NCBI RefSeq assembly: GCF_009914755.1
Contig: NC_060945.1
DNA length: 64,000 bases
Reading direction: 5' to 3' (one strand)
DNA from: the human T2T-CHM13v2.0 reference genome, Homo sapiens
This document shows, piece by piece, positions 10,439-58,127 of this stretch. Made by a program: the position numbers and the translations under genes. Numbering within the stretch: the first letter of the stretch is position 1; every line of letters begins with the position of its first letter. The notes under the pieces are model-generated. The model saw nothing but the letters and a program-made list of their open reading frames with translations. It was not told the origin of the DNA and did no database searches.

Positions 10439-12675
10439 TATATTAATCCATTTTTACACTACTATAAAGAAATACCTGAGACTGGGTAATTTATAAAATA
10501 AAGAAGTTTAATTGGCTTACAGTTCCACATGGCTGGGGAGGCCTCAGAAACTTACAATCAGGTTGGAAGCCTAAGGGGAAGCAAGGACCTTCTTCACGTG
10601 GTGGCAGAAGAGAGAAGAGTGTGAAGGGGGAAGAAGCCCTTATGAAACCATCAGATCTCATAAGAACTCACACACTGTCATGAGAACAGCATGTGGGAAA
10701 CTGCCTTCATGACCCAATCACCTCACACCAGGTACCTCTCTCAACATGTAGGGATTACAATTGGAGATGAGATTTGTGTGGGGACACAGAGCCAAACCAT
10801 ATCATTCTGCTTCAGGCCCCTCCCAAATCTCATGCCCTCACATTTCAGAACACAATCATGCCTTCCCAACAGTCCCTCAAAGTTTTAACTCATTTCAGCA
10901 TTAATTCAAAAGTCCAAAGTCCAAAGTCTCATCTGAGACTAGACAAGGCTCTTCTGCCTATGAGTATGTAAAATCAAAAACAAGTTCATTACTTCCAAGA
11001 TACAAAGGGGTTACAAGCACTGAATAAATGCTACCATTCCAAATGGAAAAAAATTTGGACAAAACAAAGGGGCTACAGGCCCCATGCAACTCCAAAATCC
11101 AGCAGGGCAGTCATTAAATCTTAAAGCTCCAAAATAATCTCCTTTGACTCCATGTCTCACATCCACGGCATGCTAATGCAAGGGGTGGGCTCTGATGGTC
11201 TTGGGCAGCTCCACCCTAGTGGCTTTGAAGCATACAGCTCCCCTACCCCCACTGGCTGCTTTCACAGCTGGCATTGAGTGTCTGCAGTTTTTCCAGGCAC
11301 ACGGTGTGAGATGTCAGTGGATCTACCATTCTGTGGTCTGGAGGACGGTGGCTGTCTTCTCCAGAGTCAGCCCAGGGGGGACTCTGTGTGGGGGCTCTAG
11401 CCACACATTTTCCTTCTGCACTGCTCTAGCAGAAGTTCTCCATGAGAGTTCTGCCCCTGCAGCAGACTTCTGCCTACATATCCAGATGTTTCCATACATC
11501 CTCTGAAATCTAGGCAGAGGTTCCCAAACTTTAATTCTTGACTTCTGTGTACCTGCGGGCCCACGTGGAAGTTGCCAAAGTGTAGAGCTTGCACCCTCTT
11601 AAGCAATGGCCTGACCTGTACACTGGGCCCTTTTAGCCATGGCTGGAGCTGGAGTGGCTGGGACGCAGGGCACCAAGCCCCAAGGCTGTACACAGCAGTG
11701 GGGTCCTGGGCCCCATCCACAAACCATTTTTCCTCCTAGGCCTCCAGGCCTGTGATGGGAGGTCCTGCTATGAAGAACTCTGACATGCCACGGAGACATG
11801 TTCACCATTGTCTTGGCGAATAACATTTGACTCCTCATTACTTATGCAAATTTCTGTAGCTGGCTTCAATTTGTCCCCAGGAAATGGGTTTTTCTTTCTG
11901 CCACATAGTTAGCCTGCAAATTTTCCAAACTTTTATACTCTGTCACCTGTTGAAAATTTTGCTGTTTAGAAATTTCTCCTGCCAGATACCTTAAATCATC
12001 ACTCTCAAGTTCAAAATTCCACAGATCTCTAGGGCAGGGGCAAAATGCTGCCAATCTCTTTGTTAAAGGATAGTAAGAATAACCTTTGGTCCCTTTTCCA
12101 ATAAGTTCCTGATCTCCATCTGAGATCACCTCAACCTGGACTTCATCGTCCATATCACTCTTAGCATTTTGGTCAAATCCATTCAACAAGTCTCTGAGAA
12201 GACTCCTTCCCGTCTTCTTCTGAGTTCTCCAAACTACTCCAACCTCTGCCTGTTACCCAGTTCCAATGTCACTTCCACATTTTCGGTTATCTTTATGGCA
12301 GTACCCCATTCCTGGTGCCAATTAGTCTTTTTTCACACTGCTATAAAGATACTACTCAAAACTGGGTAATTTATAAAGGAAGGAAGTTTAATTGACTCAC
12401 AGTTCTGCATGACTGGGGAGGCCTCAGGAAACTTAAAATCATGGCAGAAGGTGAAGAAGCAGCAAGTACTTTCTTCACAAGGTGGCAGGAAAGAGAGAGA
12501 GTGGGGGAAACTGCCACTTATAAAACCATCAGATCTCATGAGAACTCATCCACTATCATAAGAACAGCATGGGAGAAACTGCCCCCATTCCAATCACCTC
12601 CCACCAGGTCCCTCCCTCAACATGTCGGGATTACAACTTGAGATGAGATTTGAGTGGGGACACAGAGCCATATCA
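10439..12675 (-). mobile_element. Full-structure MaLR element, THE1D-like (LTR 12321-12675, internal 10805-12320, LTR 10439-10804)
   Basis: Two LTRs ending in ...ccatatca (reverse of TGATATGG) flank typical THE1-int sequence. Degenerate 5-bp TSD gccag/cccag. Same orientation as TMPRSS15. Confidence 0.92.
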
Positions 12676-17978: not shown

Positions 17979-19144
17979 CTAGATAAATTAATAAGGAAAA
18001 AACACTAAGATTTTGGATTATGAGTAGGAGAAAATATGCACATTCTGTTAAGACATAGAAGTAAAGCTCTCGCCTGATGTGTTAGCTCTGTAGTTCTTGC
18101 TTTTTCTTTGTAGTCTCATGTTTCAAAATCAGCTGCTTTCTTTCACCAGCTGTCTGATTGTTTTAAAAGATTGGAAACTAAACCTTTTCTCCATTCTTTC
18201 AATATTTTTTTTCTTTTCTTTGAAGTCTAACCCACACTCCAAGCTTCCAAATTTTCATTATTATTGTTATTGAGATTCCTGTTGGAAGATACACGGACTG
18301 ATGAACTCCCACCAATCATGGGAAGTGACTCAGGGAAACATGGTGAGAAGTGAACCATTAAAAGTTTTGTAGTTGCTTTCAGATACTTCTTGAACACCTA
18401 GCATCCAGGGACACCACTGGGTTTTGACATATGAATTCCTGTGAAGATTTCAGTGTTTTGGTTACTTTGAAACATGACTTTGAGGCTACTTCTTTCATTC
18501 TAATAATTATAAAAATGGCATGCATGACCTTGTGCCATTAGCTGGTGACTGTCTTTGTTGAAGACGTTATTTAGAATGCTGTAGAAAATAGATAACCTCA
18601 CTAGGAAAAAAAAATGTAAAAAAAGAAGGTTAACGAATTAAATATAAACATGGATAATAAAATGTGTCATTAAGTCCTACATAATCCCTTTATCAGCATA
18701 TTTTCATTGACACTGATTTATGTTTAAAATGAATTGCTTCAACTGAAACTCACAATAATGAACTCATTAGTAAATATAATAATAATGACATATAATTCTC
18801 ACAATAATCTGGTGCGAGAAGACGTAGTTTCTTCTTTTCTGAGATAGGGTAATTGGAGTTTAGAACGATTAAGAAAATTTCTCAAGGTAGTAAAGGTCTT
18901 AGGCAACAGATCTGGAATTTGGTCATTGAAATGACTGACTCTACAACCCAGGATCTCTATATAATACATTGACACCAAACTATCCCATTAAGAGGATAAT
19001 TAGAAATAATAATTCAGGCAGTATGTGTGCATATAGTCTAAATAGCTTTAATTGCATAATTGATGTAACATATTATTTATACTATTTCATTTGTATTTTA
19101 AATACTCAAAATTACATTGAAGTTTGCATGTTTAAATGTAGAAT

Positions 19145-19472: not shown

Positions 19473-21402
19473 GAAAGCCCTAAAGACTCTGCAAAAAGGC
19501 TCCTGAAACTGATAAATGACTTCAGCAAAGTTTCAGGATACAAAATAAATGTACAATGTCAGTTGCATTTCTATACGCTAAATACATTCAAGCTGAGAGC
19601 CAAATCAAGAATTTAATCCCATTGTCAATAGCCATACAAAAGATAAAATACTTAGGAATATCTCTCACCAAGGATATAAAAGAGACCTACAAGGATAACT
19701 ACAAAACACTGCTATAAAAATCAGATAACACAAACAAATGGAAATAATTCCATGCTAATGGATTGGAAGAATCAATGTTGTTAAAATGACCATACTGCCC
19801 AAAGCAACCTACAGATTCAATGCTATTCCTATTAAACTATCAAACTCATTTTTCATAAAATCATAAAAAATGATTCAAAAATTCATATGGAACTAGGAAA
19901 GAGCCAGAATAGTCAAAGCAATCCTAAGCTAAAAGAACAAAGTCAGAGGCATCACATTACGCAACTTCATGCTATACTATAAAGCTATAGTAACTAAAAC
20001 AGCATGGTAGTAGTACAAATACAGATACATAGTCCAATGAAACAGAATAGAGAACCCACAGTAAAGTAAAGCTACACATCTACAGCCATCTAATCTTTAA
20101 CAAAGTTGACAGAAAATAAACAATGAGGAAAGGACTTGCTAGTTAATAAACAGTGCTGGTATATCTGGCTAGCCATATGCAGAAGAATGAAACTGGATCC
20201 CTACCTTTCACCATATACAAAAATTAACGCAAGATAAATTAAAGATTTAAATTAAGACCTCAAACTATAACAATCCTAGAGGAAAAAAGGAAAACATCAT
20301 TCTGGAAATTATGCTTGGCAGAGAATTTAGGACTAAATCCTCAAAAGCAGTTGCAACGAAACCAAAAATTGGCAAGTGGGGCCTAATTAAACTAAAGATC
20401 TTCTGCACTGCAAAATAAACTATCAAGAAAGTCAACATACAACCTATGGAATGGGAGGAAATACTTGCAAACGATGCATCTGACAAGGTCTAATATCCCG
20501 AATCTATAAGGATCTTAAATAATTGCACAAACAAAAAACAAATAAACCCATTAAAAACTGGGCAAAAAACATGAACAAGCACTTGTCAAAAAAAGACATA
20601 CAAGTGGCTAACAAATATTTTAAAAAATACTCATCACCACTAATCACCAGAGAAATGTAAATCAAAACCACAATGAGATACCATCTCATGCTGGTCGGAA
20701 TGGCTATTACCAAAGAATCGAAAAACAACAGATGTTGACAAGGCTGCAGAGAAACAGGAATACTTATACACCGTTGATAGAAATGTAAATTAGTTCAGCC
20801 ACTGTGCAAAGCAGTTTGGCTATTTCTCAAAGAACCTAAAACAGAAATACCATTTGACCCAGCAATCCCATTACTGGGTATATATCAAAAAGAAAATAAG
20901 TCATTCTACCAAACAGACACACGCACTCACATGTTCATCACAGCACAGTTTACAATAGCAAAGTTATGGACTCAACCTAGGTGCCCATCAACGGTGTACT
21001 GGATAAAGAAAATGTGGTACATATGCATTGTGGAATAAGATGCAGCCATAAAAAAGAATGAACTCATGTCCTTTGCAGCAACATGGATGCAGCTAGAGGC
21101 CATTATACTAAGCAAATTAATGCAGGAACAGAAAAAACAAATACCACATGTTCTCAAGCATAAGTGGGAGCTAAACAGCAGGCACTCGTGGACATAAAGA
21201 TGGCAACAATAGACACTGGGGACTACCAGAAGGGGAAAGTGGGAGAGGGGCAAGGGTTGACAAACTAACTTCTGGGTACTATGCTCAGTACCTGGGTGAT
21301 GGGATCATTCATACCCCAAACCTCAATATATGCAATATACCCAGGTAACAAGCCTGCACATGTGCCCCCTGAATCTAAAATAATAGTTTAAAAAGAAAAA
21401 AA
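19473..21402 (+). mobile_element. 5'-truncated L1PA15/16-like LINE in intron 1, antisense to the gene
   Basis: Decayed ORF2 3' part plus 3'UTR 'gacataaagatggcaacaatagacactggggactac...ccccctgaatctaaaata'. Degenerate TSD aaaagtagtatgtg / aatagcagtatgca. Confidence 0.92.
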
Positions 21403-36047: not shown

Positions 36048-38682
36048 TTTATACTCCATTTTAAACTTTACTTTTTCAGAATATCCTAGAGCAAAATTCA
36101 TATTATCCTTATATATCTTTTGAACAGTAGAAATTTGTAGACTTACTATTATCATAAGGCATTTGTTTTTACAGCCCAGTGTTCCATCTCCTTGGTTAGT
36201 AATATTCTCTTGAAGACATTGGCCCCTTGTACCTTATCCATATCATTACAGAGTGGGGATGATACTGGTTAATTTTTGAAATTCTAATACTTAGCCAAAA
36301 TGTGAAACTCTTTGATAAATTCACAAACTATCTGCAGCATATTGTAAAGAACTTTAAATGTAGTTATCTTGTTTATGAGTTTAAATTATCTAGATGACTT
36401 TTGACTTTCTTTATCTTTTGCTATTGGACATGATAAACTCATTCATTCAAGAGTACATACACTTCATGCCCTACTAACACCTTAGATGTACTTATCTATT
36501 GATGACACATTTTCTATGCTCTTTACTTTGTATTAACGAGATTACAAATCATTGATTCTCAAGTAAAGCTGATACATACCAGATTTTGAGATACACCATG
36601 GCAGTCAACGTCAACTGTCTTCATAAAGATAGTGGTAAATTAAGCACGTCAACTTACATTTTGACTAATAATACAATTAATTTTTATGTATAAGATAGTA
36701 ATTTTAACTGTGCTTGAATATCAAACCAACTATAATAAGAAAAAAATCATGTCAATTGTAACATTTCAGCCAATTTTTACATAAAAGGCCTTAGAAAGGT
36801 AATTTCAAGATTTTGGAGTATGTATAACCTAATCATTATTTATTTGGCACTTCTATTTTAAATTGTCTATTACCTTTTCTCACATAAAAAGAGCCATGTT
36901 TTTACAAGTTGAATCAGAAGTCTCTACTCTGTGAGGGTAAGAAAGCAACAATTAACCATTCCAGAACTTTACATAATCCTATGATTGTCTCCCTCTCTTA
37001 TATAAAACATTCTGCCACAGCAAACAAGCAGGTGCAATTACAGCCAGACTGAGATTTCTGGAGATAAAGAATAAACAAAGATGGCATGAATATGTCCTAA
37101 AACACAGTAATCTAATTAAAATATGCAATTAAAATAGTTAATGCAATTTTCTATGTCAAGATACTACAGAAAAAAGAAGATATGTTTTGAAACATTTTAA
37201 GACTCCTACTACATAAGTTAGTATCTATACTGAACAAGATTTGGTGTGCTCACAATTTAATTAACTTCAGGCTCTCAATAACCGTGTGATAAAAATAGAG
37301 CCTAAACCCCTCAGAAGTCTGTATCTGCTAGATGTTTCTGATCTAGAAAATAAAATTAACTCTTCAGTGAAATGATCCAAATAGATTGCCAAGAGCTAAT
37401 CTTGCTCAATGTGAATCGATCCATATTAAGAAAATAATTAGGAGAATGCTGTTATCAGAGGCAGCAATGTGTCAGTCAAAAGGGTAGCCTACACACATAT
37501 AAACACGTATACACACAATCACACACATACACACATACACATTCATGCACAAACATACATATATTCACACACATACACCTACTTGGAATATAATTGCCAG
37601 AAATGCTATATCTGTTTCACAAGGAATTTGTTCAAACAAATGTAAAAAGCTATGCTATTGGGAGAAGTTGAGCTTGGCTAGCAATTTAAGAAAAGCAATC
37701 ACTTGGATCCTGGTCTCTTTCTTCAGCTAAAAGGTAATGAAATGTATTGCTCATTTGTTCTTTCTGTCATGTCCAATTAAAACAAAAGAAATGAAACTTC
37801 TCTGTCTCTTCCAAACAGGCTCTCCCCTATGGTTTCATTTCACCCATTAGATACTTTAATGCTTGCTACTAGCTGGAAGACGATACCCAAAATACAGTGT
37901 CTAAGGGATACCTTACTTCTGTGGATTAGAGGTGAGAGAGTTAAGAACCTTATTTTAAAAAGTGTTCTGTGGTCTTTCTGCATCTCTTATCATTTTTATC
38001 TGTTGTAGCGATGGCTAAGTGGAAAGAGAATGTCATTCTGCGGCCAGTACTGTGGAATACTAACAATTTTACAGCCACATACGTAGAAGCGACAGTGGCC
38101 ATATCTGTGTGCGAATGGTGTTATCTGCCTCTCTACATCAGCTGGATGGGCTACAACCTTAAACTTGGGTCAACCTTTCTGCCCTTAGGGATTGATCTAT
38201 ACGTGGCCTCTTGCTGAAATAGGGAAAATGTTACCCCCCCAATCATCTTTTACCCTGTAGCCCTGCCCATTCATCTCTTTGATTTGGTCTACGTATTCTT
38301 TTGCTCTATAATCTATTAACTATTAAACGTTATAGCTGCTACTTATAGCTGTGTTTTTAGTTCACAGAAGACAATATTGTGATTTAAATATTTAAAAATA
38401 ATATTGACCAATCTCTGCTAGAAAACATTGTTAAAATTGGAATCTCCAGAGAAAAGAAATGGGCACCTCTTTGTGACAATGGCTGTTGATTCAGCGTATG
38501 CTATACATGGTAGATCAATGCAAAAACAACGGAGTTCATACTATTTGCAATTATGGGATTGCCTCATTAAAAAATGCTATCATACTGCTCTGAAAGCCGA
38601 CCATACAAGTTAGATCATTCTTGTCATACCCAACTAAATCAGCGTTGAGCCAGGGGGAAAAATCACTCAGTGAATGTGCAAT

Positions 38683-39345
<663 letters not shown>

Positions 39346-41478
39346 CCAGCCTGGTAGAAAAGTATCCTTCTCTGCTTCACTGACATGAAACTTAGCCATG
39401 CATCTGTAGTCGTTCCTGTAGGTGGAAAATACATCCTGCCCTGGTATGTGACTGTTTTTGGATAAAGAAATGGGAATACAAGCAAATCAGAATGTGATTG
39501 GTTATGTCTTTTTTCCCCCTTCTACCATGAGAAAAGTAATTTCCCAGATACAATTGTTCTGTCAACATGGGTTGCAAAGTGAAGATATGTGAAGGAGAGT
39601 AACAGCTAATCAACAACGGACACACAATGTGAACAAGAAATTGACATTTGTTTTTGTTTGCTACTGGGACCTGAAAGTCATTTTTTTAAATGTAGCATAC
39701 CGTAGCCTAGCCTGAGTGATATGGTAATTTTAAAAATATGTATAGGAAAAGGAGGGCTGTAATTTCCTCAGCACTAGACTAGACATGAAAAATTTGAAGT
39801 TTTCTTCACATTTTTCTAACAGTGTTACCTGAAATGGTTATTGAATTCCTCCAATGCTAGCTTCTGCGTCTATGCAATGAATGGTTTGGATGAGGCAATG
39901 TTAGCCACCTTTAACATCCTTTGAGTCTGTGATTCGAGTAAACCTCAAAGCATGGCTGAAGTCACCATTATTTAGATTTGCTGAAATCTCCTTCTTTTTA
40001 TTACTTCCTTATTAAGTAGCTAGGTGGCAGTTTGTGGTTGAATAGAACACAAAGTCTATTGAATTTTCTATTTCTATGTGGCTAGGGAAAGATCTTCAAT
40101 ATTTGGAAGGTATAATAAAAATTCTCAAGTTGTAGCGAAGGTTAAATTAACCACTAGCCATACCTTGGATTTAGTAAAACCTGCATGTTACCTAAAACAA
40201 TTAGTAATTTGCCTTTGACTTAGTGATATTTGTCATTGTTAAAGCTGTCACACTAGGTCAATAGATGCAACAGGTAACAAAAGCACTTGATCTTACTGCT
40301 GTATAAAATAAGCTTTTTATCTTGGACTTTCTGTTAAGTTCCGTTAAGAGAGTTTTTCAAATAGCATGGCCAGGCTTTGGCACTGAGGATGATACTGCCT
40401 GCGAGATTCACAATGTAGATGTCACTTTGGCTCTACTCAGATAAGAGGTATCACTGCACTGAGTCACAGCAATATAGAGTCAGATGGTTTTCTGCTATGT
40501 AGGCTTTCTCCGTTCAACCCCAAGAAGTATCTAGGGAGGATTTCAAAAGTGTATGGCTTTAACACTTAAAACATCATTCCTAAATATCATCCTGAAGCTT
40601 GTTAGAAATGTTGAATCACTCTAGATTTATTAAATAAGGATGTGCATTTTAAGATCTCCAGGTGACTTATATGTACACTACATTTCTAAAAAGGGAGAGC
40701 TTGGAGAAACTAAGATATTCTCTTTTGTAGCTGTTATTTTACATATATGACACGGAGGACTATATCACTAAACACTATACCACTAATATTGGAAAATATC
40801 ATAGCACTAATATAGGATCAATGTAACTTGCAATGATGTAAAAATATGCAGCATATTTCAAATGGATTCTCAATCTTCAAATATTATGGAAGAATCTTGA
40901 TTTGGTGTTTCAAGATCTTGGTCACAGTTTTCAGTACTCCACTCTGATTGTAAAGGGAAGGCAGTTTGCATAGAGGTTGAAAGTATTGGTTCTGGGTCTA
41001 ATTTTTTGAGCTAAAACCTTGGCGTCTTGTTACTGTGTATAAAACTGTGGATAGTTTTTACTTAATTTTCCTGAATTTTATTTTCTCATCAACATTATAG
41101 GGATAATAGTTACCTAATAGTTAAGGAAAATCTTTAGAAAAGTTATTTGAGACCAGATGTTTCTATCCCTGGTCAGTTAACAATTTTTTCTTTCTTAGGG
41201 TTCATTAATGAAGTTGTAACCAGTGTTTTAATTTAGGAATGCCAAAGGTCAGTATATATTTTTGTAAGATAACTATATGGTTTCATTAAAGAAAAATATT
41301 TGACATATGCAATTTCTATTCCTTTGTTTGAGGATTGTACTCTGTCTTTTGAATGCTCTTCTCCTTAATCTATTTATGGAATGGTTTGCTCCTTTATGTA
41401 AGACATGAATAAGATTTTTCTGATACAAAAGTTTCCCCAGGAAGATAATGGATTAAGCCTTATGGAGACTTTAAGTAA

Positions 41479-41948
<470 letters not shown>

Positions 41949-42159
41949 CTGAAGGCAAGTATTACTCTTAATGAAAAATAAATGGAAGGTGAAACCTTTG
42001 GTGACTTGATACTTTACCTTCTTATGTTTATTTAAAAAAAAAAATCACAATGTGGTTTACCTCTGATTGAAGATGCATGTAACTTGAGCAACAGATCCCA
42101 AAACATCACTTCATGATGTTATTTTGAAAACAGGATAAAATGATATGAATCATATAATG

Positions 42160-42400
42160 ATAATTACTTACAGTTAATGATCATTGACTATGTACTATGT
42201 GTAATTCTAGGAATTTTACATGCATTTAGTTATTCTCACGATAACCCTATGATGTTAAACAGTAGTAGCGTGGCAGGTGCTACAATTATTCCCATTTATG
42301 AGATGTGGAAACTGAGGCACAAAGCATTTAAATAAATAGCCTACGGTATCAAAGCCGATGACTAACATTTTCAGAAAATAAATTCAGATAGTCTGGATCT
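42160..42400 (-). mobile_element. MIR remnant
   Basis: 'attattcccatttatgagatgtggaaactgaggcac'. Confidence 0.75.
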
Positions 42401-42419
42401 TAACACTAAATTCAATAGT

Positions 42420-43440
<1,021 letters not shown>

Positions 43441-44530
43441 TATGCATCTCTATGAAACTGAGAAAATACTGATTCTCTAAAAAATAAAATATTCCCTGAT
43501 ATTAACAGATTATAGCTCAAAGTGATTAGCATAATGGCAGGGAGATTATAATCATTTAGTAATGTTCAGTATCATCCTTATCTTCATCTTCTTTTTTTTC
43601 TTCTTGAAAAATTAACTGAAGTATGATCACAAAGCAAAACATAAAGGAGACATTCAAGAGTGCTTTATTTAAAGAAAGAGAAGTTTCAGCCTGGCATCAA
43701 TAATTTGCCTAAATATTTTAACTGAAAGAGAATGCTTTCACACGGTCTCAAAAGAAAAGCCATTTTCTTTTCATCTGAAAACAAGTGTTTTAAATTTTTT
43801 TTATCAGTAGATTCATAGTGTTATCTGAGGTCCTACATTTATTCTTTAAGCTTATATTTACCTCAACAATAATTTCCAAAAATCATCACCTCTGCTAACT
43901 TGAGAGAAGATTCTATTTTCCAGTTACTGAATGGTCCTTTTTCATGCTATTCAAATCTGAATATCTTGCTTAAACTCCAGTGCCCAGACTGCTCCCAATT
44001 GTCTAGTAAAGCTCTCAGCCCAGCCAAACGTTGTGGAGAAACTATACAGCAATTCCTTTTTGCAACACTCTTGTTTTGACATCTCAGTGAGTCTATTTAC
44101 ATGTAGTAATTTCTCAGTGCCAGTTAAAGTCAGAAAAAGTGATTCACTGTGGCATTCTTGCAAAATATGACAGATGGGCTCATTAGTCGTTTGATTCATA
44201 AAAGCCATCATGTTGTTTTGCTTAAAATAAGAAGCAAAAAATAAGCAAGTCCTTGATAGGTTTAATTCAGATCAGAGCAAAGTAATGCCAACTCTGCAGA
44301 TTCATGTAAAGAACCGACAAAAGGAGCCGGGGGAAAAAGGACTGTGCAAATGAATGCATTATTCTTTGTAAAAAAGTTATGAGCCATAAAGTAATGGTTA
44401 AAAAAGAGCTAGGCATCTGCAACTAGGCAAAGAGATTAGAAGAAAGCAACAACAACTAGTAAGTTATATGCTATTTGTTGTGTTTTCTTGATGTAAATAT
44501 AGCAGTAGAAAGAATGAAGACATTAAATGA

Positions 44531-44697
44531 GAATTAAGAGAATATATGTATTCATATATATTAATTCATATATATTATATTATATATGAATATTATATAT
44601 TCATACATGTGTGAATTCATATGTATGAATATATATGATATAATAATTTTATGAATATATGAATACATATGAATTAATATGCATATATATTAATTCA
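44531..44697. repeat. AT-rich imperfect palindrome
   Basis: tatatattcatacat (44594-44608) is the exact reverse complement of atgtatgaatatata (44621-44635), around GAATTC; further complementary blocks lie outward. Confidence 0.8.
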
Positions 44698-44931
44698 AGA
44701 TGCCAGAGACATTAAGAAAAGAGTAATCCCTATCAATGGATAAATAATATGATACAGAATAGTATTTGTTAGTAAAGAAGTGAAAATTTAAAAGAATATA
44801 TATTTGGTGTGTCAACACCAAAATGTCTTCCAGAAAACTCTGGTAGAGTAGTTGCATGCCAACAGAAAACTATTCTTATGGAAATTTTCATTTACATTGA
44901 TTAGCTATTAATGTTTTGTTGCAATCAGCAA

Positions 44932-45438
44932 ACCTGACTACTATAAGGACTCCACAGTCAAATTTGAATTTAAAATTATGGATGGTAGATTGTCAAATCT
45001 TATTTGTTGTCTTGCCTTTAAACAATTCTAAAAGAAAGGCTTCATATCTTGCAGAATTTTTAATTGTTAAGTAATATCAATAATTAATAATAACCCAGGA
45101 GATTAGTGAAAAGAAGTTTCCCATTGTAACTCTTCATTGAGCAAAAGACTTCTGTCAGTCAATTAAAAACATCTCTATTGCTGGAGAAATAATGGTTCTT
45201 TCACTTTCTTATGAGTTGTGTCCATTTCTGTGATGGTCTTACATGATATGTGAATGAATCATAAGTTATTTCTCAAACTCTTAACAAGTATTTATGTATC
45301 TGTGTAGATCAATAATTTAATTACCTGTGTAGAAATAAGAACTTATGAAAGCTTCAAATGTTGTGAATAATAACGTAGTGGAAAATTCTTTTGCCTCATC
45401 CACATTTGGGAGAAAATGCTTAAAAAAATCTCCCAAAT
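44932..45438 (+). repeat. Inverted repeat, left arm
   Basis: Reverse complement of 47419-47910. Confidence 0.97.
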
Positions 45439-46163
45439 ATATCTCTACACATTTTTCATGGATATTTTGATAATTCAGATGCATCAGTATTCTGGGCTTC
45501 AAGCACTCTTGCTGTAAAAAACCCTTAATAACCTAAATGCAATACAAGAAAAATACATTATTTGGTGGCAAAAGATAAATAGAAAAACATTAACATTGAT
45601 TTTATGCTCTGTGCCAGGCTCTGTGCTATGAGTATTAACAAAATATTAATAAAATATCTTTTTATTCACCTATTTATTTGCTTCCTAAATATTTGTAAGA
45701 ACTCTTTTATAGCCTGCATACCTTTCTCTGTAATGATGTCTTCCTTTTCTTTTCCAGCTTCAAGGGCCCACAATTACTTTATTTTACGAACCCTTATTTA
45801 GCAACTATACACAACACACACTCACAGTGACAAACAACGTAAGTAGTTGTACTGTGCAGATAATAACTCACTTAATCCTCATGTGTTCTATGAAGTAGGA
45901 ATTATTATTATCTACTTTTTATGCAAAATACCAAGGAGTAGTATAGTTAATTAACTTATCTATTGTCACTTAGCAAATAAGTGGCAGATTCAGAATTCCA
46001 GCTCAGGCACATGATCTGGCTACAAAATGAAGCTCTCACGTAAAATACTGTGATATGTAAGAGAAGAAATTTTATAAGGGGCTTAACTCAATTACCTCCA
46101 CTTTCTGACTTGAAAACTATTTGATTTTATTAAAACTTCATGATATGTCAACAAAATATAAAC

Positions 46164-47204
46164 AAAAGTCAATATGCTAAAGATGAAGAAAGAAAATCCT
46201 TACCTGTTTTCATCTTTAAACAGCTCTTCTGAAGCATGCAAACCCTCTTTTTGGTCTACGCTATGTGATAAAAAGCTATTTGTTTTAGCCACAGTTAATA
46301 GAGGACTTTAGTAATGTCAACAAAATTGGTTCCATTTTGAAAGTCTGTTGAACTTCACCTATGATATTTCATGCATTGTCAAAGATTTGTTTTATTTCAA
46401 AATTATGCATTTTCATTGATAACATTTGAAAAATAAGAATGTGGAAAAAATGTGTTGCCAAATGGTTTGTCAATTAATAGTTTAGTGATCACATATTTCA
46501 TTTCTTCCTAGATGACGCACATGCCGTAATCTAACTGACTTCTTTTTGCCACAGGCATTAAAAAGAACAAAAAATGTCTCAGTTGGATTTTATGAAACAA
46601 ACACATAAAGGAAGTGTTCGCCTCTGCATTTCTCCCCTCCGCCATGCCTGGTTTAGAGTGATTAATCCCTTTTGGTGTTTGTTAAAAAACATGTTATTGA
46701 TGTTATTAGAAGCCCATTTCATTGTAATTAATATCACTGGTTATTAGCTGTTCTTACAAAGGAAATGATTGGCTCTAGGCATCAACTTATGTAAGTTGTA
46801 TAAGGCAGCAGCCCTCTGAGAACAGATTCACTTCTCTCTCCTTTGCTAGCTCATTTGTGTCTGTCTGAAGCATGCAGTGTTAATTGCGTAGCCCAAAATC
46901 TACCCGCTCCTTGCTCTTTGCCAACAGAGCCCCAGTTTTTATCAGATTGTGAAAGTGTACAGCTTTTTTAGAATTATAGTCAGTCTAACCCTCTAAGCCA
47001 CACACACTTATTTTCCATTCTCCTTGCCTTACTTACTATTACATTTAAGGGAATAAAAGTCAACATGCTGAAGATGGATAAATAAAATTCTTAACTGTTT
47101 ATTTCTTTTAACAACTGTTCTGATGCATGTAAACTCTCCTTTTGGTCTATGCTTTGTGAATAAAAAGCTATTTATTTTAGCCACAGTTAATAGGGGACTT
47201 TAGT
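46164..47204 (+). repeat. Direct duplication of ~150 bp (46164-46312 and 47055-47204), MLT1-3'-end-like
   Basis: Both copies share 'aaaagtcaa.atgct.aagatg...ttttggtcta.gct.tgtga..aaaaagctattt.ttttagccacagttaatag.ggactttagt'. Confidence 0.88.
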
Positions 47205-47418
47205 TGCAGGCAAAAACATTCATTACTACTTCACCATCTGAAATAGACCTGCTCAGGACCGACCTACTTCCACAAAGGCTGACCGATCAAAACATGACTG
47301 AGCATTTATATTTTATCATTGTTTACCTAAGAAATATACTTATTCAAATCATTCTTCTAACCAGGAAAGTGTTTCTCTACCTTTTAGAGAAAAAAACACC
47401 TCAGTGTTTCAAATCTGA

Positions 47419-47910
47419 ATTTGGGAGTTTTTTAAAACATTTTTTTCCCAAATGTGGATAAGGCAAAAGAATTTTCCACTATGTTATTATTCACAACATT
47501 TGAAGCTTTGATAAGTTCTTATTTCTACACAGGTAGTTAAATTATTGATCTACACAGCTAAGAGTTTGAGGAATAACTTATGATTCATTCACATATCATG
47601 TAAGGCAGTCACAGAAATGGACACAACTCATAAGAAAGTGAAAGAACCATTATTTCTCCAGCAATAGAGATGTTTTTAATTGACCGACAGAAGTCTTTTG
47701 CTCAATGAAGAGTTACAATGGGAAACTTCTTTTCACTAATCTCCTGGGTTATTATTAATTATTGATATTACTTAACAATTAAAAATTCTGCAAGATATGA
47801 AGCCTTTCTTTTAGAATTGTTTAAAGGCAAGACAACAAATAAGATTTGACAATCTACTATGCATAATTTTAAATTCAAATTTGACTGTGGAGTCCTTATA
47901 GTAGTCAGGT
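47419..47910 (-). repeat. Inverted repeat, right arm
   Basis: Reverse complement of 44932-45438, lacking a ~15-bp block. Confidence 0.97.
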
Positions 47911-49412
47911 GACTTGGGTGCGTTAAAGGTATTCAGTTTCATAAGGGAAGCTGAGCATAAAAGTTTGGAAAATTTGCAGGCTGACAATTTGATAGAAAGG
48001 AAAAACCCATCTTCCGAGGAGAAATTCAAGCAGGCTGCAGAAATTTGCATAAGTAACAAGGAGCCAAATGTTAATCACCAAGACAATGGGAAAATGTCTC
48101 CAGGGCATGTCAGAGGTCTTCATGACAGCCCCTCCCACCATAGGTCTGGAGGCCTAGGAGAAAATGATTTTGTGGGCCGGTCCCAGGGCCCCCTTGCTAT
48201 CTGCAGCTTATGGACTTGGTGCTCTGCATTCCAACTTTGGCTGAAAGGGGCCAATGTAGAGTGCAGGCCATGGCTTCAGAGAGTGGAAGCCCAAAGCCTT
48301 TTCAGCTTCCACATGGTGTTGAGCCTGTGAGTGCACAGAAGTCAAGAATTGAGGTTTGGGAACCTCTGCCTAGATTTCAGAATATGTATGGAAATACCTG
48401 GATGTCCAGGCAGAAGTTTGCTGCAGGGTGGGGCGCTCATGGAGAACCTCTGCTAGGGCAGTGCAGAAGGAAAATGTGGGGTTGGAGCACACAGAGGCCC
48501 TACTGGGGCACCACCTAGTGGAGCTGTGAGAAGAGAGTCACTTTCCTCCAGACCCCAGAATGGTATATCCACCAACAGCTTGCCCTGTTCACCTGGAAAA
48601 GTTGCAAACCCTGAATGCCAACTCATGAAAGCAGCTGGGAGGGAGGCTCTACCCTGCAAAGCCACAGGACAGAGCTGCCCAAGACCATGGGAACCCACCT
48701 CTTGCATCAGCATCAGTGTGACCTGGATGTGAGACCTGGAGTCAAAGGAGATCATTTTGGAGCTATAAAATTTGACTGTCCTGCTGGATTTCAGACTAGC
48801 ATGGGCCCCCTAACCACTTTGTTTTGGCCAATTTCTCCCATTTGGAATGGCTGTGTTAACTCAATACCTGTACCCCCAGTGTATCTAGGCTTTTGATTTT
48901 ACAGGCTTATAGGCAGAAGGGACTTGCCTTGTGTCAGATGAGACTTTGAACTGTGGACTTTTGAGTTAATGCTGTAATGAGCTAAGACTTTGGGGGACTG
49001 TTGGGAAGGCATGATTGGTTTTGAAATGTGGGGACATGAGATTTGGAGGGGCCGGGGTGGAATGATATGGTTTGGTTCTGTGTCCCCACCCAAATCTCAT
49101 CTTGAATTATACTCCCATAATTCCCACGTGCTGTGGGAGGGAACCAGTGGGAGATAATTTGAATCAAGAAGGCAGTTTCTCCCATACTGTTCTTATGGTA
49201 GTGAATAAATTTCATGAGATCTGATGGTTTTATCAGGGGTTTCCACTTTTGTGTCTTCATCATTTTCTCTTTCTGCTGCCACGTAGGAAGTGCCTTTCAA
49301 CTTCTGCCATGATTCTGAGGTTTCCTCAGCCATGTAGAACTGTAAGTCCAATTAAACCTCTTTTTCTTCCCAGTCTTGGGTATGTCTTTAGCAGCATGAA
49401 GACAAATTAACA
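47911..49412 (+). mobile_element. 5'-truncated THE1A-like element (internal 47911-49062, 3' LTR 49063-49412)
   Basis: THE1-int motifs followed by LTR TGATATGGTTTGG...'atcaggggtttcc.cttttg'...'gtccaattaaacctctttttcttcccagtct'. No 5' LTR present. Confidence 0.92.
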
Positions 49413-52028
49413 TGCCTACGTAGATGTATGAACAAAGTTTCTAGTTCTAGTGTTTGTAATTTGAGATTACTTATACTATACTTGCAGCTTTGCCTAGTTT
49501 TCTTCCTAAAATGTTCAACTACATGTTACTCTCATTGAGTACCTTAATATATTTCACATCCATTAAGAATTTTAAAGAGAGATATGTATTTTTGCTCAAA
49601 TAATTTCTTAATTTAAATATAGTTTTAATTCACCAGAGCATGAATCCAAGTAGTTAAAAATATGTATGTTGTATGTTCAGCTCATGAATCTTCCCATTAT
49701 ATTTACTATTACTGATTGATGCATGTTAGCACTTATCACCTTTTCACAATGTTAGCATCAGTCTTTGTGAAAGCTGTACCTCTTAGTAAATATCTGAAAA
49801 TATTGCATTAAAATTAAAATTTGGGGTCACAAAAAAGTCACTGTTAGATGTGTATCAATGCTGGTGAATAATCATATTTCACAATTAGTGACACCTTTTT
49901 CTATCTGCTTGAAGAAGGTTATATAGCATTCTGTTTTTGATAGTTTAAATGGTTTCTCTCAAAAGATGTGTAGTATCTGTCCAAAACATTTGGTCCCATA
50001 AAAAAGAAACTATGTTTTGCCTTGGGTAATTTTATGTTGCTTGATCAAAGATCTAGTTACTTATTTTGGCAGCAGAAAATATATTGGTGAAGGTGTTCAC
50101 CTAGAATGAAGCTTCAATTCTATGGGGATAGATTCATTCTTTATCTTGGTGGTGGTTGCTCAACCAAAACTGGGCATTTTTCAGCTTGTCCAACTAGTGT
50201 GGCAATTGTTATTAGGAAACTTCTTTGACGAAATCATCACTTATGCCATACATATCCAATAAAAGAAGAGCAGAATTACTACAATCTGCTGCTCTGTATG
50301 CTGGTGCAATAACACCAAATATTAGCTTGTCAAATTCATCTTATGCAAGTTTGTGATCAAGGTTTTCCAATCATTTCCGGATACAAGTAATCATGAGACA
50401 CAGGGAAAACAAGGAGAGGTCTGGGCCCACCAATGTAGCTCTGATATTCCCTTCTTGCAGCAGTGGAATGCACTCTGGTCCACAATATATCAAATGTGTA
50501 ATAATGTATGCAGCTAGATTATTTACATAGAAGAGAGTTCTTTTGGTCTTAAAAGACATTCTTTTTATTCTTATAAATTATACAGCTTTTGTGACATTTT
50601 CCAGGCAAATGTGCTCCAAAACTCTACACATGTTAGTTTGCTTAGCATGTACAGTCTTAGAACAGATATATCTGACTAAAAGCAATCCATAGGAAGGAAC
50701 TCTCCAGCTAGCAAGACCATTAGTTCATTTGTTATTAGCAAATTAGCAAATTGTCCAGATCACCATTTTTCTTTGCTGTAAAGTCTCCCAGTAAAAAGAG
50801 AAAAAGAATTTTATACTTGCTGTGTTAGTTTATAGAATAAAAATTTGTGCTCCATCAAGGCTACAAATGTCTTAAGAACCAGCCTAGCCCAAGGATGTTA
50901 TTGCTTTTATCCTGAAATGTTTTATATTATAATAAATATCCTGTGTACTTACTTTCCAGCCAGGTTTTTCCTTTGTAATTGCTGTATTTTATGCAGGTTG
51001 ACATACTTCTTAATATGGTCTCACATTGACCATATTATGTAAAGTTTTATCATGGCCCTATCCCTTGATTCTGGGTCTCTTGGTCCATTCTTTCTGTTTT
51101 CCATTGAAACTTCGGAATTTCTCCCCTGTTTCTTTTCTTTCTTTGTCTTTTCAAAGATGATATTCAAGGAGAGTAGTTAAATATGTTGATTCAAACAATA
51201 GCTTGTATGGCAATTTAAATTTCATTTTAAATTATTGTATATACTTTTCCTTCTTTTCTCCAATAAGAACTTTTTTCCAAAGTATAGTTGTGTTCAAACT
51301 ATGAGTCCACTAAAGCAATTATAATTAAATAACTTGAATAGTTTAATTTAAAATGATTTCTCATATGCATAAAATTTTTCTTACTAAAATTTCCATTTAC
51401 TTTTACAAGTTTTTCCACTTTAGAAAATATAGGATTTATCTATGCAATCAAAAATGCCTACTAGAGCCTTTTAGCTTTTCTCTTTCTGAAATGAAAATGA
51501 AATGTACCAAATTACCTTTGGTAAATGCACTTTCTAATTCTTCTATGCTACTTCCACATATTGATTTCTATAACAGAAAAAGTATATATGTTTACTAAAG
51601 TGTGTCAATGACTTTCTTTTACTTTTAAGAAAATAAGTAAAATTATTGGGTGAATATTCAAGGAATTTTAATAAAGTTTTCTTACATTTATCTTCATCTT
51701 CAGATCCTTGCATTGAACTGAAAACTTTAATTCTGAATAATTTGTAGCTTCCTGAATACATTTTGCTTTGTCATGAACTCATCCCTTCATATAAAGTATT
51801 CTCTTACACTTGGGTTTCTGGATTATCATTTCCTCCATTCCTCTTTCCTACTTGGAGGCCTCTTATTTATCCTTTAAGCCATATTCCAAGAGTTTTCTCC
51901 TCTGATAATACTTCTCTGAACTCTTCTATTATTTGTAGTTTGAGACACTATGTCTTCATCAATTTCCTGAGCTATTTATGTAATATTTAGTAACATTATG
52001 AAAATAATAGAATCTTACTTTTGTGTCA

Positions 52029-52485
52029 TGTTAAGGGTTGAATTGTGCCTCGCCAAAATACACATGTTGAAGTACTAAATCTCAGTACCTCAGATTGCCA
52101 CCTTGTTAGGAAACAGGGTCATTGCAGATGTAACTAGTGAAATTAAGTGGAGGACATAATGGAGTAGGGTGGGCTCCTAATCAAATCTGAAAGGTATCCT
52201 TATAGGAAAGAAGGTTATGTGAAGACACAGAAATACAGGAAGAATGAACCGTGAAATGGGAGACAGAGATTGGAGTTATGCTTCCATACGCTAAAGAAAG
52301 CATCAGGCTACCAGGAGTCGGGAGAGTCAAGGTAGCATCCTTCCCTAGGGGCTTCAGAGAGACCACAGCCCGGCCCACGTAGATTTTGGATTTCCAGCCT
52401 CAAGGACAAGGAGATAAGAAATTTCTGTTGTTTAAAGCCACCAGCTTGTGGCACTTTGTTTAGGCAACCCTAGGAAACTGATTGA
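52029..52485 (+). mobile_element. Solo MLT1B/C-like LTR
   Basis: 'tgttaagggttgaattgtg...gggtcattgcagatgtaa...aaatttctgttgtttaaagcca...ccctaggaaact'; TSD tgtca on both sides. Confidence 0.88.
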
Positions 52486-53072
52486 TGTCATGAAATTTTA
52501 GATGTCTTGGGAAACAGTAAAATTCTTCTCTAGTTTTTATACTCATCAATCATGATGTGATTTTTTTTCTTCTCCGAAAAAGTGGGGACTAATTATTTGT
52601 GAGAGTTAACTATTTTTGTCAAGTAAGTAATGCAAAGATTCCCGTGTACCTTTCTCGGAAAGATAACTTTGTATCATGGCAAAAAATTGAACATTTAATA
52701 AGTAACATGGTGAAAAATCCCAATTTAGAAAGTGTATGAGTTTACTTTTTTCATGTTAATACTAACTAGCAGCCAATATGCTGACACTGAACATACCTTA
52801 AATGGGGGAAATGGAGTCATTGTTGCACCTGACCACTGCTAGCAATGTTTGTCCTGGTAAGTATTTAAAACATTTTAGTGTCTCAAAAGATGGAAAAGAA
52901 TGGCCTAATCCACGCTGACTGATGAGAATAACTCAGGAACAGCAAATTAAAACCAAATTGGTGTTATCCACATCTTGTGCAACTCTTGTGTTGAAAATAA
53001 AGGAGCAGGAAAAACTTTTTGATTAAATTTCTGGAACTTCTGCCTCATTTATCTTAAAAATAACAGAGTTTA

Positions 53073-53348
53073 GGCCTGGCATGGTGGCTTATGCCTGTAA
53101 TTGTAACACTTTGGGAGGCAGACGAGGGCAGATTGCTTGAGCCCAGGAGTTTGAGACCAGCCTGGGTAACATGGAGAAACCCTGTCTCTAGAAAAAATAC
53201 AAAAGAATTAGACAGGCATGGTGGCTGAGGTGGGAGAATCACCTGAGCTTGAGAGGTCAAGGCTGCAGTGATCCATGATTGTGCTACTGCACTCCAGCCT
53301 GGGTGAGAAAGTAAGACCTTGTCTCAAAAAAAAAAAAAAAAAAAAAAA
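53073..53348 (+). mobile_element. AluJ with small internal deletion
   Basis: 'gcttgagcccaggagttt', 'aggtcaaggctgcagtga'; TSD aaaataaca(g/t)agttt. Confidence 0.92.
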
Positions 53349-54725
53349 GAAAATAACATAGTTTGAGGATATAAAGAATACTCATTTCAGATTTTGGTAA
53401 GGGCCGAGTATGTTCAGATATACCTTCTAGCTGTTATTATTAACTTTATACATTTTCCTAAAATGTTATGATGAGTAGTTTGTTTTGGAGTTTTGCAGAT
53501 AAACTGTAATTAACATTTTTCTTATTTTGAAAAGTTGAAAAATATCTGTCCTTCAGTTTCTGGAATTTGTCCAGTTTGTTTTTAAAAAAATAAATGATCT
53601 GGCAATTGGATACTCACTACTTACTCTGAAAAGCCATTGTTGCCAATTTGGCAGGTCCAATACAGGGGTAAGGAGCTCTTTCACATGGATCCATTTGTTA
53701 TACTACTGCTCTGCGGTGCAAGATTAAATTAATCTCTCCTTTGTTTTTTCTTTCATGTGAAATGGCTTCAAATATTTTATTTTGGCTAGTATCAACCTTC
53801 TAAAAAGATAGCATATACGTGTTCGTACATCCAGCTACTTCAATAAAAGGAAGACTCACCATAATCTATACCTGCAGCTACATCTACATTGCACGTATAC
53901 TCATATCTATAGCTAATCTCTATCTCTACACACAGAGATACATGCACATATATACACACATTTATATATGTACACACATAAGTATAAACATGCATAAATA
54001 TTTTTATATTATTGTTACTGTTCAATTACATATATATGTATTATATATCTTAGAATCAGAGAGCTAAATATTCCATTTTTTGTGTCTTTTTCTATCTTCA
54101 GTTTTAAGATGCTCTTTTCCTAGGTAATTTAATATCCATTTCTCTTAGAGAAGATAACAGAAGCAGACACATATCCAGAATAGTGATTTTTAAAAATATC
54201 TATGTAAACAGTCATAAATCTGGTGTATTTACACAACTATTTGCAGAACAATTATTATAGTTTGGATTACTACCCTACAGGAACATAACTGCTTTGTAAG
54301 CTTTCTAAAATATTTTTTTCTAATAATCTCTTACTTCTTCTGAATAGGAGGTATATATTAGCTATATCATTTGATAAACATCTTAATCCATCCAATGTTT
54401 TAGAAATATTTGAAATAGAAATTACATATTTGGAAGAAAGATTATTAAAAGGCACTATTAGTTACTTCTAAATAAATACATTTAAAAACTCATCTATTGC
54501 TCATAAATTAAACATCATGCATAAGTTATCTAGCCTTATATAATTATAATTTGATTGGACAAATTGAGTCTTTCATCTGTACTTAGAATTTATTTGTAAG
54601 TACTTTAAAAATAGATATTATCTTTTCTAAATTTTTTTCATCCTTGATGTTCCTTGAGGAAAGAAGTCCTTGGAGGAAGCAATAACCTCTACCTTGTATT
54701 TATATCCATCCTTTTATTTCACTTA

Positions 54726-58127
<3,402 letters not shown>

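What the first reader, a model, noticed from the sequence alone, without database searches (positions are those of the whole stretch)
44932..47910. ~500-bp inverted repeats with an identity step around a 2-kb spacer: candidate recurrently inverting segment upstream of TMPRSS15
Seen: 44932-45438 is the reverse complement of 47419-47910, with a 1980-bp spacer, and I do not recognise the arms as a known transposon. By hand alignment the outer 302 bp (44932-45233) have only 3 mismatches, including a perfect 172-bp run. The inner ~200 bp have about a dozen differences plus a ~15-bp indel. Established: near-identical inverted repeats mediate NAHR inversion polymorphisms and are homogenised by gene conversion. 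Inference: an old inverted duplication whose outer part is still exchanging, so the spacer may exist in both orientations, 22-25 kb upstream of the enteropeptidase start codon. Short-read assays would tend to miss it.
Basis: partly seen in the sequence, partly recalled or inferred. Interest (0 to 1): 0.8.

Follow-up and report, generated by a model that had tools for sequence, protein, structure and literature searches.

The report
Old inverted duplication scar upstream of TMPRSS15
Two half-kilobase copies of one unique sequence face each other across 2 kb of DNA upstream of the enteropeptidase gene; they look like the fixed scar of an old break-repair accident, and nothing found here shows that the segment between them still flips.

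Summary
44932-45438 is the reverse complement of 47419-47910: 507 against 492 bp, with 15 mismatches and 3 indels over 491 aligned columns (96.9% identity), around a 1,980-bp spacer. The arm has only these two copies in the whole assembly, so it is not a dispersed transposon.

New here: the outer end of the right arm is fused, through 4 shared bases (47907-47910), to the interior of an older high-copy 2.3-kb LTR element. This copy of the element lacks its first ~760 bp, including the 5' LTR. The repeat was therefore made, or trimmed, by a non-homologous rearrangement: an inverted duplication with a deletion. Arm divergence (K2P 0.031) puts the event very roughly 10-30 Myr ago.

The "identity step" is only marginal. 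Permutation p is 0.042, or 0.088 if three clustered mismatches count as one event. The pattern looks more like a gradient towards the inner junction than a step. One past gene-conversion tract is possible but not needed.

No inversion is listed at this locus in any catalogue I could search, including one of 612 inverted-repeat candidates. In that study only 6 of 319 unflagged inverted duplication pairs were polymorphic.

Verdict: an ordinary, probably fixed, inverted low-copy repeat. No other human or primate haplotype could be examined.

The parts
44932..45438 (+). Left arm of the inverted repeat (507 bp), probably the source copy
   Evidence: Only two copies exist in the assembly. The left flank 44696-44931 is single copy.
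45439..47418 (.). Spacer, 1,980 bp, single copy in the genome
   Evidence: self match plus two 60-70-bp matches at 79-81% on contig 4 to spacer positions 410-477. The longest stop-to-stop frame lying wholly inside the structure is 85 aa.
47419..47910 (-). Right arm (492 bp), reverse complement of the left arm, probably the derived copy
   Evidence: Its outer end abuts the interior of an LTR element.
47907..47910 (.). 4-bp overlap (AGGT) shared by the end of arm homology and the start of LTR-element homology: a microhomology junction
   Evidence: Arm homology runs to 47910. Element homology starts at 47907.
47907..49410 (+). 5'-truncated copy of a high-copy 2.3-kb LTR element (THE1/MaLR-like; the name is recalled). 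It covers element positions 761-2312 of 2,316. The 5' LTR and about 395 bp of interior are missing.
   Evidence: 5,317 first-look candidates, 40 scored, the 39 besides the self match at 82-84%.: full copies are about 2.3 kb with terminal direct repeats of about 350-370 bp, and positions 1-760 match nothing near the repeat.
45282..45296 (+). 15 bp present in the left arm only
46161..46312 (+). First copy of an older direct repeat inside the spacer (85% identical to 47052-47204)
47052..47204 (+). Second copy of the direct repeat inside the spacer

Best explanation
This is a locus-specific inverted low-copy repeat left behind by one old non-homologous rearrangement, and it is now a fixed, passive piece of structure. 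An LTR element of a high-copy 2.3-kb family already lay to the right of the present spacer. A break or stalled fork there was repaired by copying about 505 bp from some 2 kb upstream in inverted orientation. The copy was then joined to position ~761 of the element through 4 bases of microhomology. This removed the element's 5' LTR, about 395 bp of its interior, and an unknown amount of flanking DNA. The event belongs to the classes 'inverted interspersed duplication with deletion' or 'dupINVdel'. The two differ only in whether the spacer was inverted in the same event. Shown: the anatomy, the copy number, the truncation and the microhomology. Inferred: that duplication and truncation were a single event, that the left arm is the source, and an age of roughly 10-30 Myr. 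Since then the arms have diverged by 3.1%. Their uneven identity may record one conversion tract in the outer ~300 bp (my odds about 40%). The pair remains a possible but weak substrate for NAHR inversion of the spacer. No function is indicated.
For: The arm has exactly 2 matches in the 3.1-Gb assembly (2 candidates, 2 scored). The spacer and the left flank are single copy. The 400 bp immediately right of the right arm belong to a family with 5,317 first-look candidates. Of the 40 scored, the 39 besides the self match are 82-84% identical, and 38 of those 39 start at query positions 1-3. Three fetched copies are 2.27-2.35 kb with terminal direct repeats, and each continues about 760 bp upstream of the point that corresponds to 47907. 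The window copy matches element positions 761-2312 only. Positions 1-760 match nothing in the window except a separate full copy at 10441-12675. Arm homology ends at 47910 and element homology starts at 47907. Arm K2P is 0.031, against 0.106-0.127 between the two LTRs of the three fetched copies and 0.188 for the window's other copy. The junction is therefore younger than the element family. Collins et al. 2017 (PMC5338099, passages seen) list dupINVdel and iDUPdel among the complex-variant subclasses they resolved. The arms differ at 15 sites plus 3 indels, which an assembly duplication would not show.
Against: The ancestral state was not seen, because no outgroup or second haplotype is available. 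A two-step history fits equally well: a longer, older inverted repeat whose right arm was later cut by a deletion reaching into the element. In that case the polarity of the arms is unknown. The inner junction (47418/47419) shows no microhomology. The age rests on assumed substitution rates (recalled values of about 0.5-1.0e-9 per site per year) and would be an underestimate if conversion has occurred. The absence of a listed inversion is negative evidence only. It also depends on hg38 coordinates (about chr21:18,425,100-18,428,300) that I derived from recalled gene coordinates.
Confidence: 0.55

Rival explanations
1. Two-step history. A longer inverted duplication arose first. A later simple deletion with 4-bp microhomology then removed the outer part of the right arm together with the 5' third of the LTR element. 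The end of homology is then a deletion breakpoint, not the end of the original copy.
For: The anatomy is the same as for the best explanation. A 4-bp microhomology is typical of end-joining deletions (established knowledge). The homology boundary would coincide with the junction by necessity.
Against: It needs two independent events at one spot. Nothing in the single haplotype distinguishes it from the one-event model.
Confidence: 0.25
2. The arms are an active NAHR and gene-conversion substrate, and the 2-kb spacer is polymorphic or recurrently inverted in humans or among primates.
For: The arms are inverted, 96.9% identical and contain perfect runs of 172 and 76 bp. Identity is uneven, with 3 mismatches in 302 outer columns against 12 in 189 inner columns (permutation p = 0.042). 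Table S1 of PMC13629690 (part 1 read) marks as polymorphic several inversions flanked by repeats of only 140-300 bp, for example HsInv0147, HsInv0031, HsInv0045 and HsInv0098.
Against: No entry on chromosome 21 at 18.39-18.45 Mb (hg38) appears in the 612-candidate table. That table merges 1,528 calls from five long-read, Strand-seq and optical-map studies of 195 people with paired-end predictions. Nothing appears at the T2T or hg38 coordinates in the supplements of PMC10150506, PMC12350169 (one file cut when stored, one unreadable) or PMC13721702. In PMC6748972 only HsInv0045 (28.0 Mb, hg19) turned up on chr21 (12 of 18 files searched). Base rate: 6 of 319 (1.9%) unflagged inverted duplicated pairs of 1-50 kb were polymorphic in 54 people, and these arms are shorter than that class. 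The step loses significance (p = 0.088) if three adjacent mismatches count as one event. In the same table, repeats of similar size typed 'IR' (HsInv0062, HsInv0064) are marked not polymorphic.
Confidence: 0.06
3. A clean inversion made by staggered breaks, which leaves inverted duplications at the ends of the inverted segment. The arms would be a by-product of an inversion, with no DNA lost.
For: An inverted duplication flanking a segment is the footprint this model predicts (the model is recalled from work on Drosophila inversions; no paper was read here).
Against: Without loss of DNA, the missing 5' part of the LTR element should now lie inverted at the left end of the spacer. The full element matches nothing anywhere in 44000-47906. 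The spacer has no dispersed-repeat matches at either end. A deletion must therefore be added, which turns this model into the dupINVdel form of the best explanation.
Confidence: 0.03
4. A DNA transposon or foldback element with ~500-bp terminal inverted repeats.
For: Long terminal inverted repeats around a 2-kb body.
Against: The arm has only two copies in the genome and the body only one. The same search tool did pick up 60-70-bp matches at 79-81%. No target-site duplication is present: the flanks read ...CAGCAA and GACTTG.... The longest open frame lying wholly inside the structure is 85 aa. The right end sits inside another element, and the rest of that element is not on the left side.
Confidence: 0.02
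5. An assembly artefact: the second arm is falsely duplicated.
For: None found.
Against: The arms differ at 15 sites and 3 indels. Each arm has its own unique junctions, one of them inside a recognisable truncated element.
Confidence: 0.01

Closest known systems
Complex structural variants with a copy-number change beside an inverted piece (dupINVdel; inverted interspersed duplication with deletion, iDUPdel), as classified by Collins et al. 2017 (PMC5338099; passages seen)
   Same: One segment is duplicated in inverted orientation, DNA is lost at the junction, and one junction shows microhomology.
   Different: This case is old (arms 3.1% diverged) and presumably fixed, and it is small (0.5-kb duplication). 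It was inferred from one haplotype using a truncated LTR element as the marker, not seen as a variant against a reference.
Inverted-repeat-flanked polymorphic human inversions (InvFEST HsInv series; PMC6748972, PMC13629690)
   Same: A pair of inverted repeats brackets a few kb. Arm and inverted-segment sizes fall inside the range of that catalogue (repeats of 140 bp to 190 kb, inversions of 197 bp to 4.4 Mb).
   Different: Both orientations have not been reported for this locus, and it is not among the 612 candidates. Its arms are unique sequence, not SINE, LINE or segmental duplication.
Arm-to-arm gene conversion in large sex-chromosome palindromes (recalled; a paper on a Y-chromosome palindrome appears only in a reference list seen)
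   Same: Inverted arms around a spacer, with a stretch of higher identity that conversion could produce.
   Different: Those arms are tens of kb to Mb long and nearly identical throughout (recalled). Here the arms are 0.5 kb at 96.9%, and the unevenness is only marginally significant.

Membership tests
NAHR-mediated polymorphic inversion | Two repeats in inverted orientation flank the segment | tested here: met
NAHR-mediated polymorphic inversion | Long tracts of uninterrupted identity able to support homologous exchange | tested here: inconclusive
   The longest perfect runs are 172 and 76 bp. The thresholds I recall for mammalian cells (roughly 130-450 bp) bracket this value. No threshold was read in a paper here.
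NAHR-mediated polymorphic inversion | Both orientations observed among haplotypes | not testable with these tools
   Only one human assembly is held. The locus is not listed in any catalogue searched.
Segmental duplication (definition as used in PMC13629690 Methods: inverted pairs of 1-50 kb taken from the UCSC track, at least 90% identity, not made entirely of other repeats) | Length of at least 1 kb | tested here: not met
   507 and 492 bp. Criterion read.
Segmental duplication (same definition) | At least 90% identity and not a dispersed repeat | tested here: met
   96.9% over 491 aligned columns. Two copies in the genome.
Terminal-inverted-repeat DNA transposon | Target-site duplication at both ends | tested here: not met
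   The flanks read share no duplicated bases.
Terminal-inverted-repeat DNA transposon | Several copies in the genome | tested here: not met
Terminal-inverted-repeat DNA transposon | A transposase frame or a recognisable remnant of one | tested here: not met
   The longest stop-to-stop frame lying wholly inside the structure is 85 aa. No protein search was run.
dupINVdel / iDUPdel complex rearrangement | A duplicated segment in inverted orientation | tested here: met
dupINVdel / iDUPdel complex rearrangement | Loss of DNA at the junction | tested here: met
   The LTR element lacks positions 1-760, which full copies carry.
dupINVdel / iDUPdel complex rearrangement | Duplication and deletion arose in one event | not testable with these tools
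   This needs the ancestral arrangement from outgroup genomes.

The most novel reading that the evidence does not exclude
The arms still exchange, so the 2-kb spacer flips at low frequency in humans or differs in orientation among apes, with conversion keeping the outer 300 bp alike. In addition, in TMPRSS15 pre-mRNAs that start far upstream, the two arms could pair into a duplex of about 480 bp that is not made of Alu sequence. Such a duplex would be a plausible target for RNA editing or for double-stranded-RNA sensing in the duodenum.
Probability: 0.05. Interest if true: 0.45.

Novelty: new member of a known kind. Interest (0 to 1): 0.18.

Why it matters
As it stands it matters little. Small inverted low-copy repeats are common in the human genome, and most are not polymorphic. 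The useful result is methodological. A truncated LTR element at the edge of one arm gives the polarity and the type of the founding event from a single haplotype. It also gives a sharp prediction: species without the right arm should carry the full-length element. If the spacer did prove to flip, this would be one of the few inversions mediated by short, unique-sequence repeats, close to an alternative upstream region of the enteropeptidase gene.

Tried and rejected
- **Dispersed-repeat origin of the arms or spacer:** rejected by whole-genome searches.
- **Known RNA family:** an Rfam scan of 43000-50000 at E up to 1 found nothing inside 44932-47910. It found only Alu-type SRP and miRNA-like matches at 43087-43376 and a weak match in the AT-rich tract at 44595-44637.
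- **Transposase frame:** none.
- **Missing 5' part of the LTR element:** sought in the whole window and not found near the repeat.
- **Extra homology beyond the arm ends:** none in a sensitive self-BLAST of 38000-54000 or in the extended alignment.
- **Error-prone repair synthesis as the cause of the inner excess of differences:** the one paper read (PMC4937565, abstract) reports about a two-fold rise in variant density beside deletions. That is far too small to give 12 differences in 189 bp, so at most it adds a few.
- **Literature:** a full-text search for TMPRSS15 + inversion + inverted repeats returned 0 papers. The main texts of PMC3961182 and PMC6748972 do not mention chr21 or TMPRSS15.
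- **Not held or unreadable:** Porubsky et al. 2022 (Cell) is not held. The supplement of the ape T2T paper PMC12058530 is unreadable. A listing in either would not have been seen. bioRxiv supplements are closed.

Full report
**What is there.** The window is human chr21 (T2T-CHM13, from the hub note). The repeat finder and a gapped alignment confirm that 44932-45438 (507 bp) is the reverse complement of 47419-47910 (492 bp), around a 1,980-bp spacer. Over 491 aligned columns there are 15 mismatches (10 transitions, 5 transversions) and three indels: 15 bp at 45282-45296 and two of 1 bp. Identity is 96.9% and K2P is 0.031. Of the 19 inverted pairs of 150 nt or more in the window, this is the longest and most similar. 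Most of the others fall at the same places as the multi-copy direct-repeat families listed in the same call, and one such copy shows the SRP-RNA likeness of Alu elements.

**It is not a dispersed repeat.**
- Searched against the whole 3.1-Gb assembly, the arm finds only itself and its partner (2 candidates, both scored).
- The spacer finds only itself and two 60-70-bp matches at about 80% on another chromosome. This shows the search can see old repeats. By eye that piece resembles a MIR core, which is a recalled resemblance and not a test.
- The 236 bp left of the left arm are single copy.
- The flanks carry no target-site duplication.
- The longest stop-to-stop frame lying wholly inside the structure is 85 aa.
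- No Rfam family matches inside it.
- A transposon with long terminal repeats is therefore rejected. An assembly artefact is rejected by the 18 differences between the arms and by their distinct junctions.

**The new observation: the right arm ends inside a truncated LTR element.**
- The 400 bp directly right of the right arm belong to a very abundant family. There were 5,317 first-look candidates and 40 were scored. The 39 besides the self match are 82-84% identical, and 38 of those 39 start at query positions 1-3.
- Three fetched copies (L007-L009) are 2.27-2.35 kb long with terminal direct repeats of about 350-370 bp. This is the build of THE1-type MaLR elements; the name is recalled and no repeat library is available here.
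- The window copy aligns to positions 761-2312 of the 2,316-bp copy in L007, at 47907-49410. All three reference copies, and a separate full copy at 10441-12675 on the minus strand, continue for about 760 bp upstream of that point.
- Those 760 bp (the 5' LTR plus about 395 bp of interior) match nothing else in the window.
- Arm homology runs to 47910 and element homology starts at 47907. The two therefore overlap by four bases, AGGT.
- LTR elements integrate full length (established knowledge). The truncation is thus a later rearrangement, and its breakpoint is the outer end of the right arm.

**How it most likely arose.**
- The simplest reading is one event. A break or stalled fork near the element was repaired by copying about 505 bp from 2 kb upstream in inverted orientation. 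The copy was then joined to element position ~761 by microhomology, with loss of at least 760 bp.
- This fits two of the complex-variant subclasses named in Collins et al. 2017 (PMC5338099, passages): inverted interspersed duplication with deletion, or dupINVdel if the spacer was inverted in the same event. The present sequence cannot tell these two apart.
- On this reading the left arm is the source and the right arm is the copy.
- A two-step alternative fits the same anatomy and leaves the polarity open: an older, longer inverted repeat whose right arm was later cut by a deletion. I give it about 0.25 against 0.55 for the one-event model.
- A pure staggered-break inversion without loss of DNA is disfavoured. 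It predicts the missing part of the element, inverted, at the left end of the spacer, and it is not there.
- The inner junction (47418/47419) shows no microhomology.

**Age.**
- Arm K2P is 0.031. The two LTRs within each of the three fetched copies differ by 0.106-0.127, and those of the window's other copy by 0.188. The repeat is therefore about a quarter to a third as old as those insertions.
- With recalled rates of 0.5-1.0e-9 per site per year, 0.031 corresponds to about 15-30 Myr. The comparison with LTR pairs suggests the lower end or somewhat less.
- Conversion would make this an underestimate.

**The identity step.**
- A maximum chi-square scan puts the best change point at 45234, with 3/302 against 12/189 mismatches. 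The permutation p is only 0.042, and the longest-run test gives p = 0.0225. The post hoc Fisher p of 0.0017 does not allow for choosing the break point.
- Counting the adjacent mismatches 45234/45235/45237 as one event gives p = 0.088.
- Adding the three indels as events gives p = 0.0037, but moves the change point to the innermost ~28 columns. That stretch is rich in A runs and lies next to the inner junction.
- The pattern is therefore a gradient of differences rising towards the spacer, not two clean levels.
- One conversion tract of 170-300 bp in the outer part would explain it. So could chance combined with slippage-prone sequence.
- Error-prone repair synthesis can add only a little. The paper read reports about a two-fold rise in variant density beside deletions (PMC4937565, abstract).

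**Is the spacer known to flip?** I could not look at any other human haplotype or any primate, so the evidence below comes from the literature only. I placed the repeat at about chr21:18,425,100-18,428,300 in hg38. I did this by matching the hub's gene span to recalled hg38 coordinates of both gene ends, which agree to within 170 bp.
- The 612-candidate table of inverted-repeat-flanked inversions in PMC13629690 merges 1,528 calls from five studies of 195 people, paired-end predictions and inverted duplicated pairs (abstract and sections 4, 7 and 13 read; Table S1 part 1 read). It has no row with a coordinate starting 18424-18429. It also has no chromosome-21 row anywhere in 18.39-18.449 Mb.
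- Searches by T2T or hg38 coordinates found nothing at the locus in the supplements of PMC10150506, PMC12350169 (one file cut when stored, one unreadable) and PMC13721702.
- In PMC6748972 the only chr21 rows concern HsInv0045 at 28.0 Mb, hg19 (12 of 18 files searched).
- A full-text search for TMPRSS15 with inversion and inverted repeats returned no paper.
- Not seen: Porubsky et al. 2022 (not held), the ape T2T supplements (unreadable), and bioRxiv supplements.
- Base rate: in PMC13629690 only 6 of 319 (1.9%) inverted duplicated pairs of 1-50 kb not flagged before were polymorphic in 54 people, against 155 of 612 overall. The arms here are shorter than that class.
Size alone therefore does not exclude flipping.
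- I put the chance of a detectable polymorphism at about 5%.

**Context.** The repeat lies 21.7-24.6 kb upstream of the start codon of the selected transcript. The hub table gives the gene a span reaching 105526 on the minus strand, with upstream exons of other transcripts. For those models the repeat is intronic (an inference from the table). If so transcribed, the two arms could pair over 479 bp, with an uninterrupted helix of up to 249 bp and a cofold energy of -763.8 kcal/mol, against -90.0 and -100.8 for the arms alone. This is a calculation on the sequence and not evidence of transcription.

**Verdict.** The repeat is best read as the fixed scar of an old inverted duplication with deletion. 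The evidence for continuing exchange is weak, and no evidence was found for two orientations. It is a new example of a well-known kind of structure and of low interest, unless haplotype or primate comparisons show otherwise.

Noticed in passing
window 44542-44694: An AT-rich, partly self-complementary low-complexity tract (units such as ATATATGA and ATATATTATTCAT) lies about 240 bp left of the left arm. It has self-inverted matches at 72-82% and a weak mir-297-like Rfam match. Palindromic AT-rich tracts are known break-prone sites (recalled). Whether this one bears on the rearrangement is unknown.
   Followed up: partly
window 46161-46312 and 47052-47204: A 152-bp direct repeat inside the spacer, 85% identical with copies 891 bp apart. 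It is older than the inverted repeat, and neither copy recurs elsewhere in the genome.
   Followed up: partly
window 10441-12675 (minus strand): A full-length copy of the same 2.3-kb LTR family inside a TMPRSS15 intron. Its two LTRs differ by K2P 0.188, so it is older than the three genomic copies fetched.
   Followed up: partly
window 19747-21097 and 56486-57834: Collinear direct matches at 72-81%, 36.7 kb apart (families D6-D9). The second set lies in the long masked stretch 54726-58010. They are probably two copies of an old dispersed repeat and not a local duplication.
   Followed up: no
window 45848-45915: The only part of the spacer with other genomic matches: two on contig 4, 60-70 bp at 79-81%. 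By eye it resembles a MIR core (recalled).
   Followed up: no
window 46560-46920: The most GC-rich part of the spacer (0.39, against about 0.30-0.33 around it). By eye it has several TAAT-type motifs. Whether it is a conserved non-coding element could not be tested without other vertebrate genomes.
   Followed up: no
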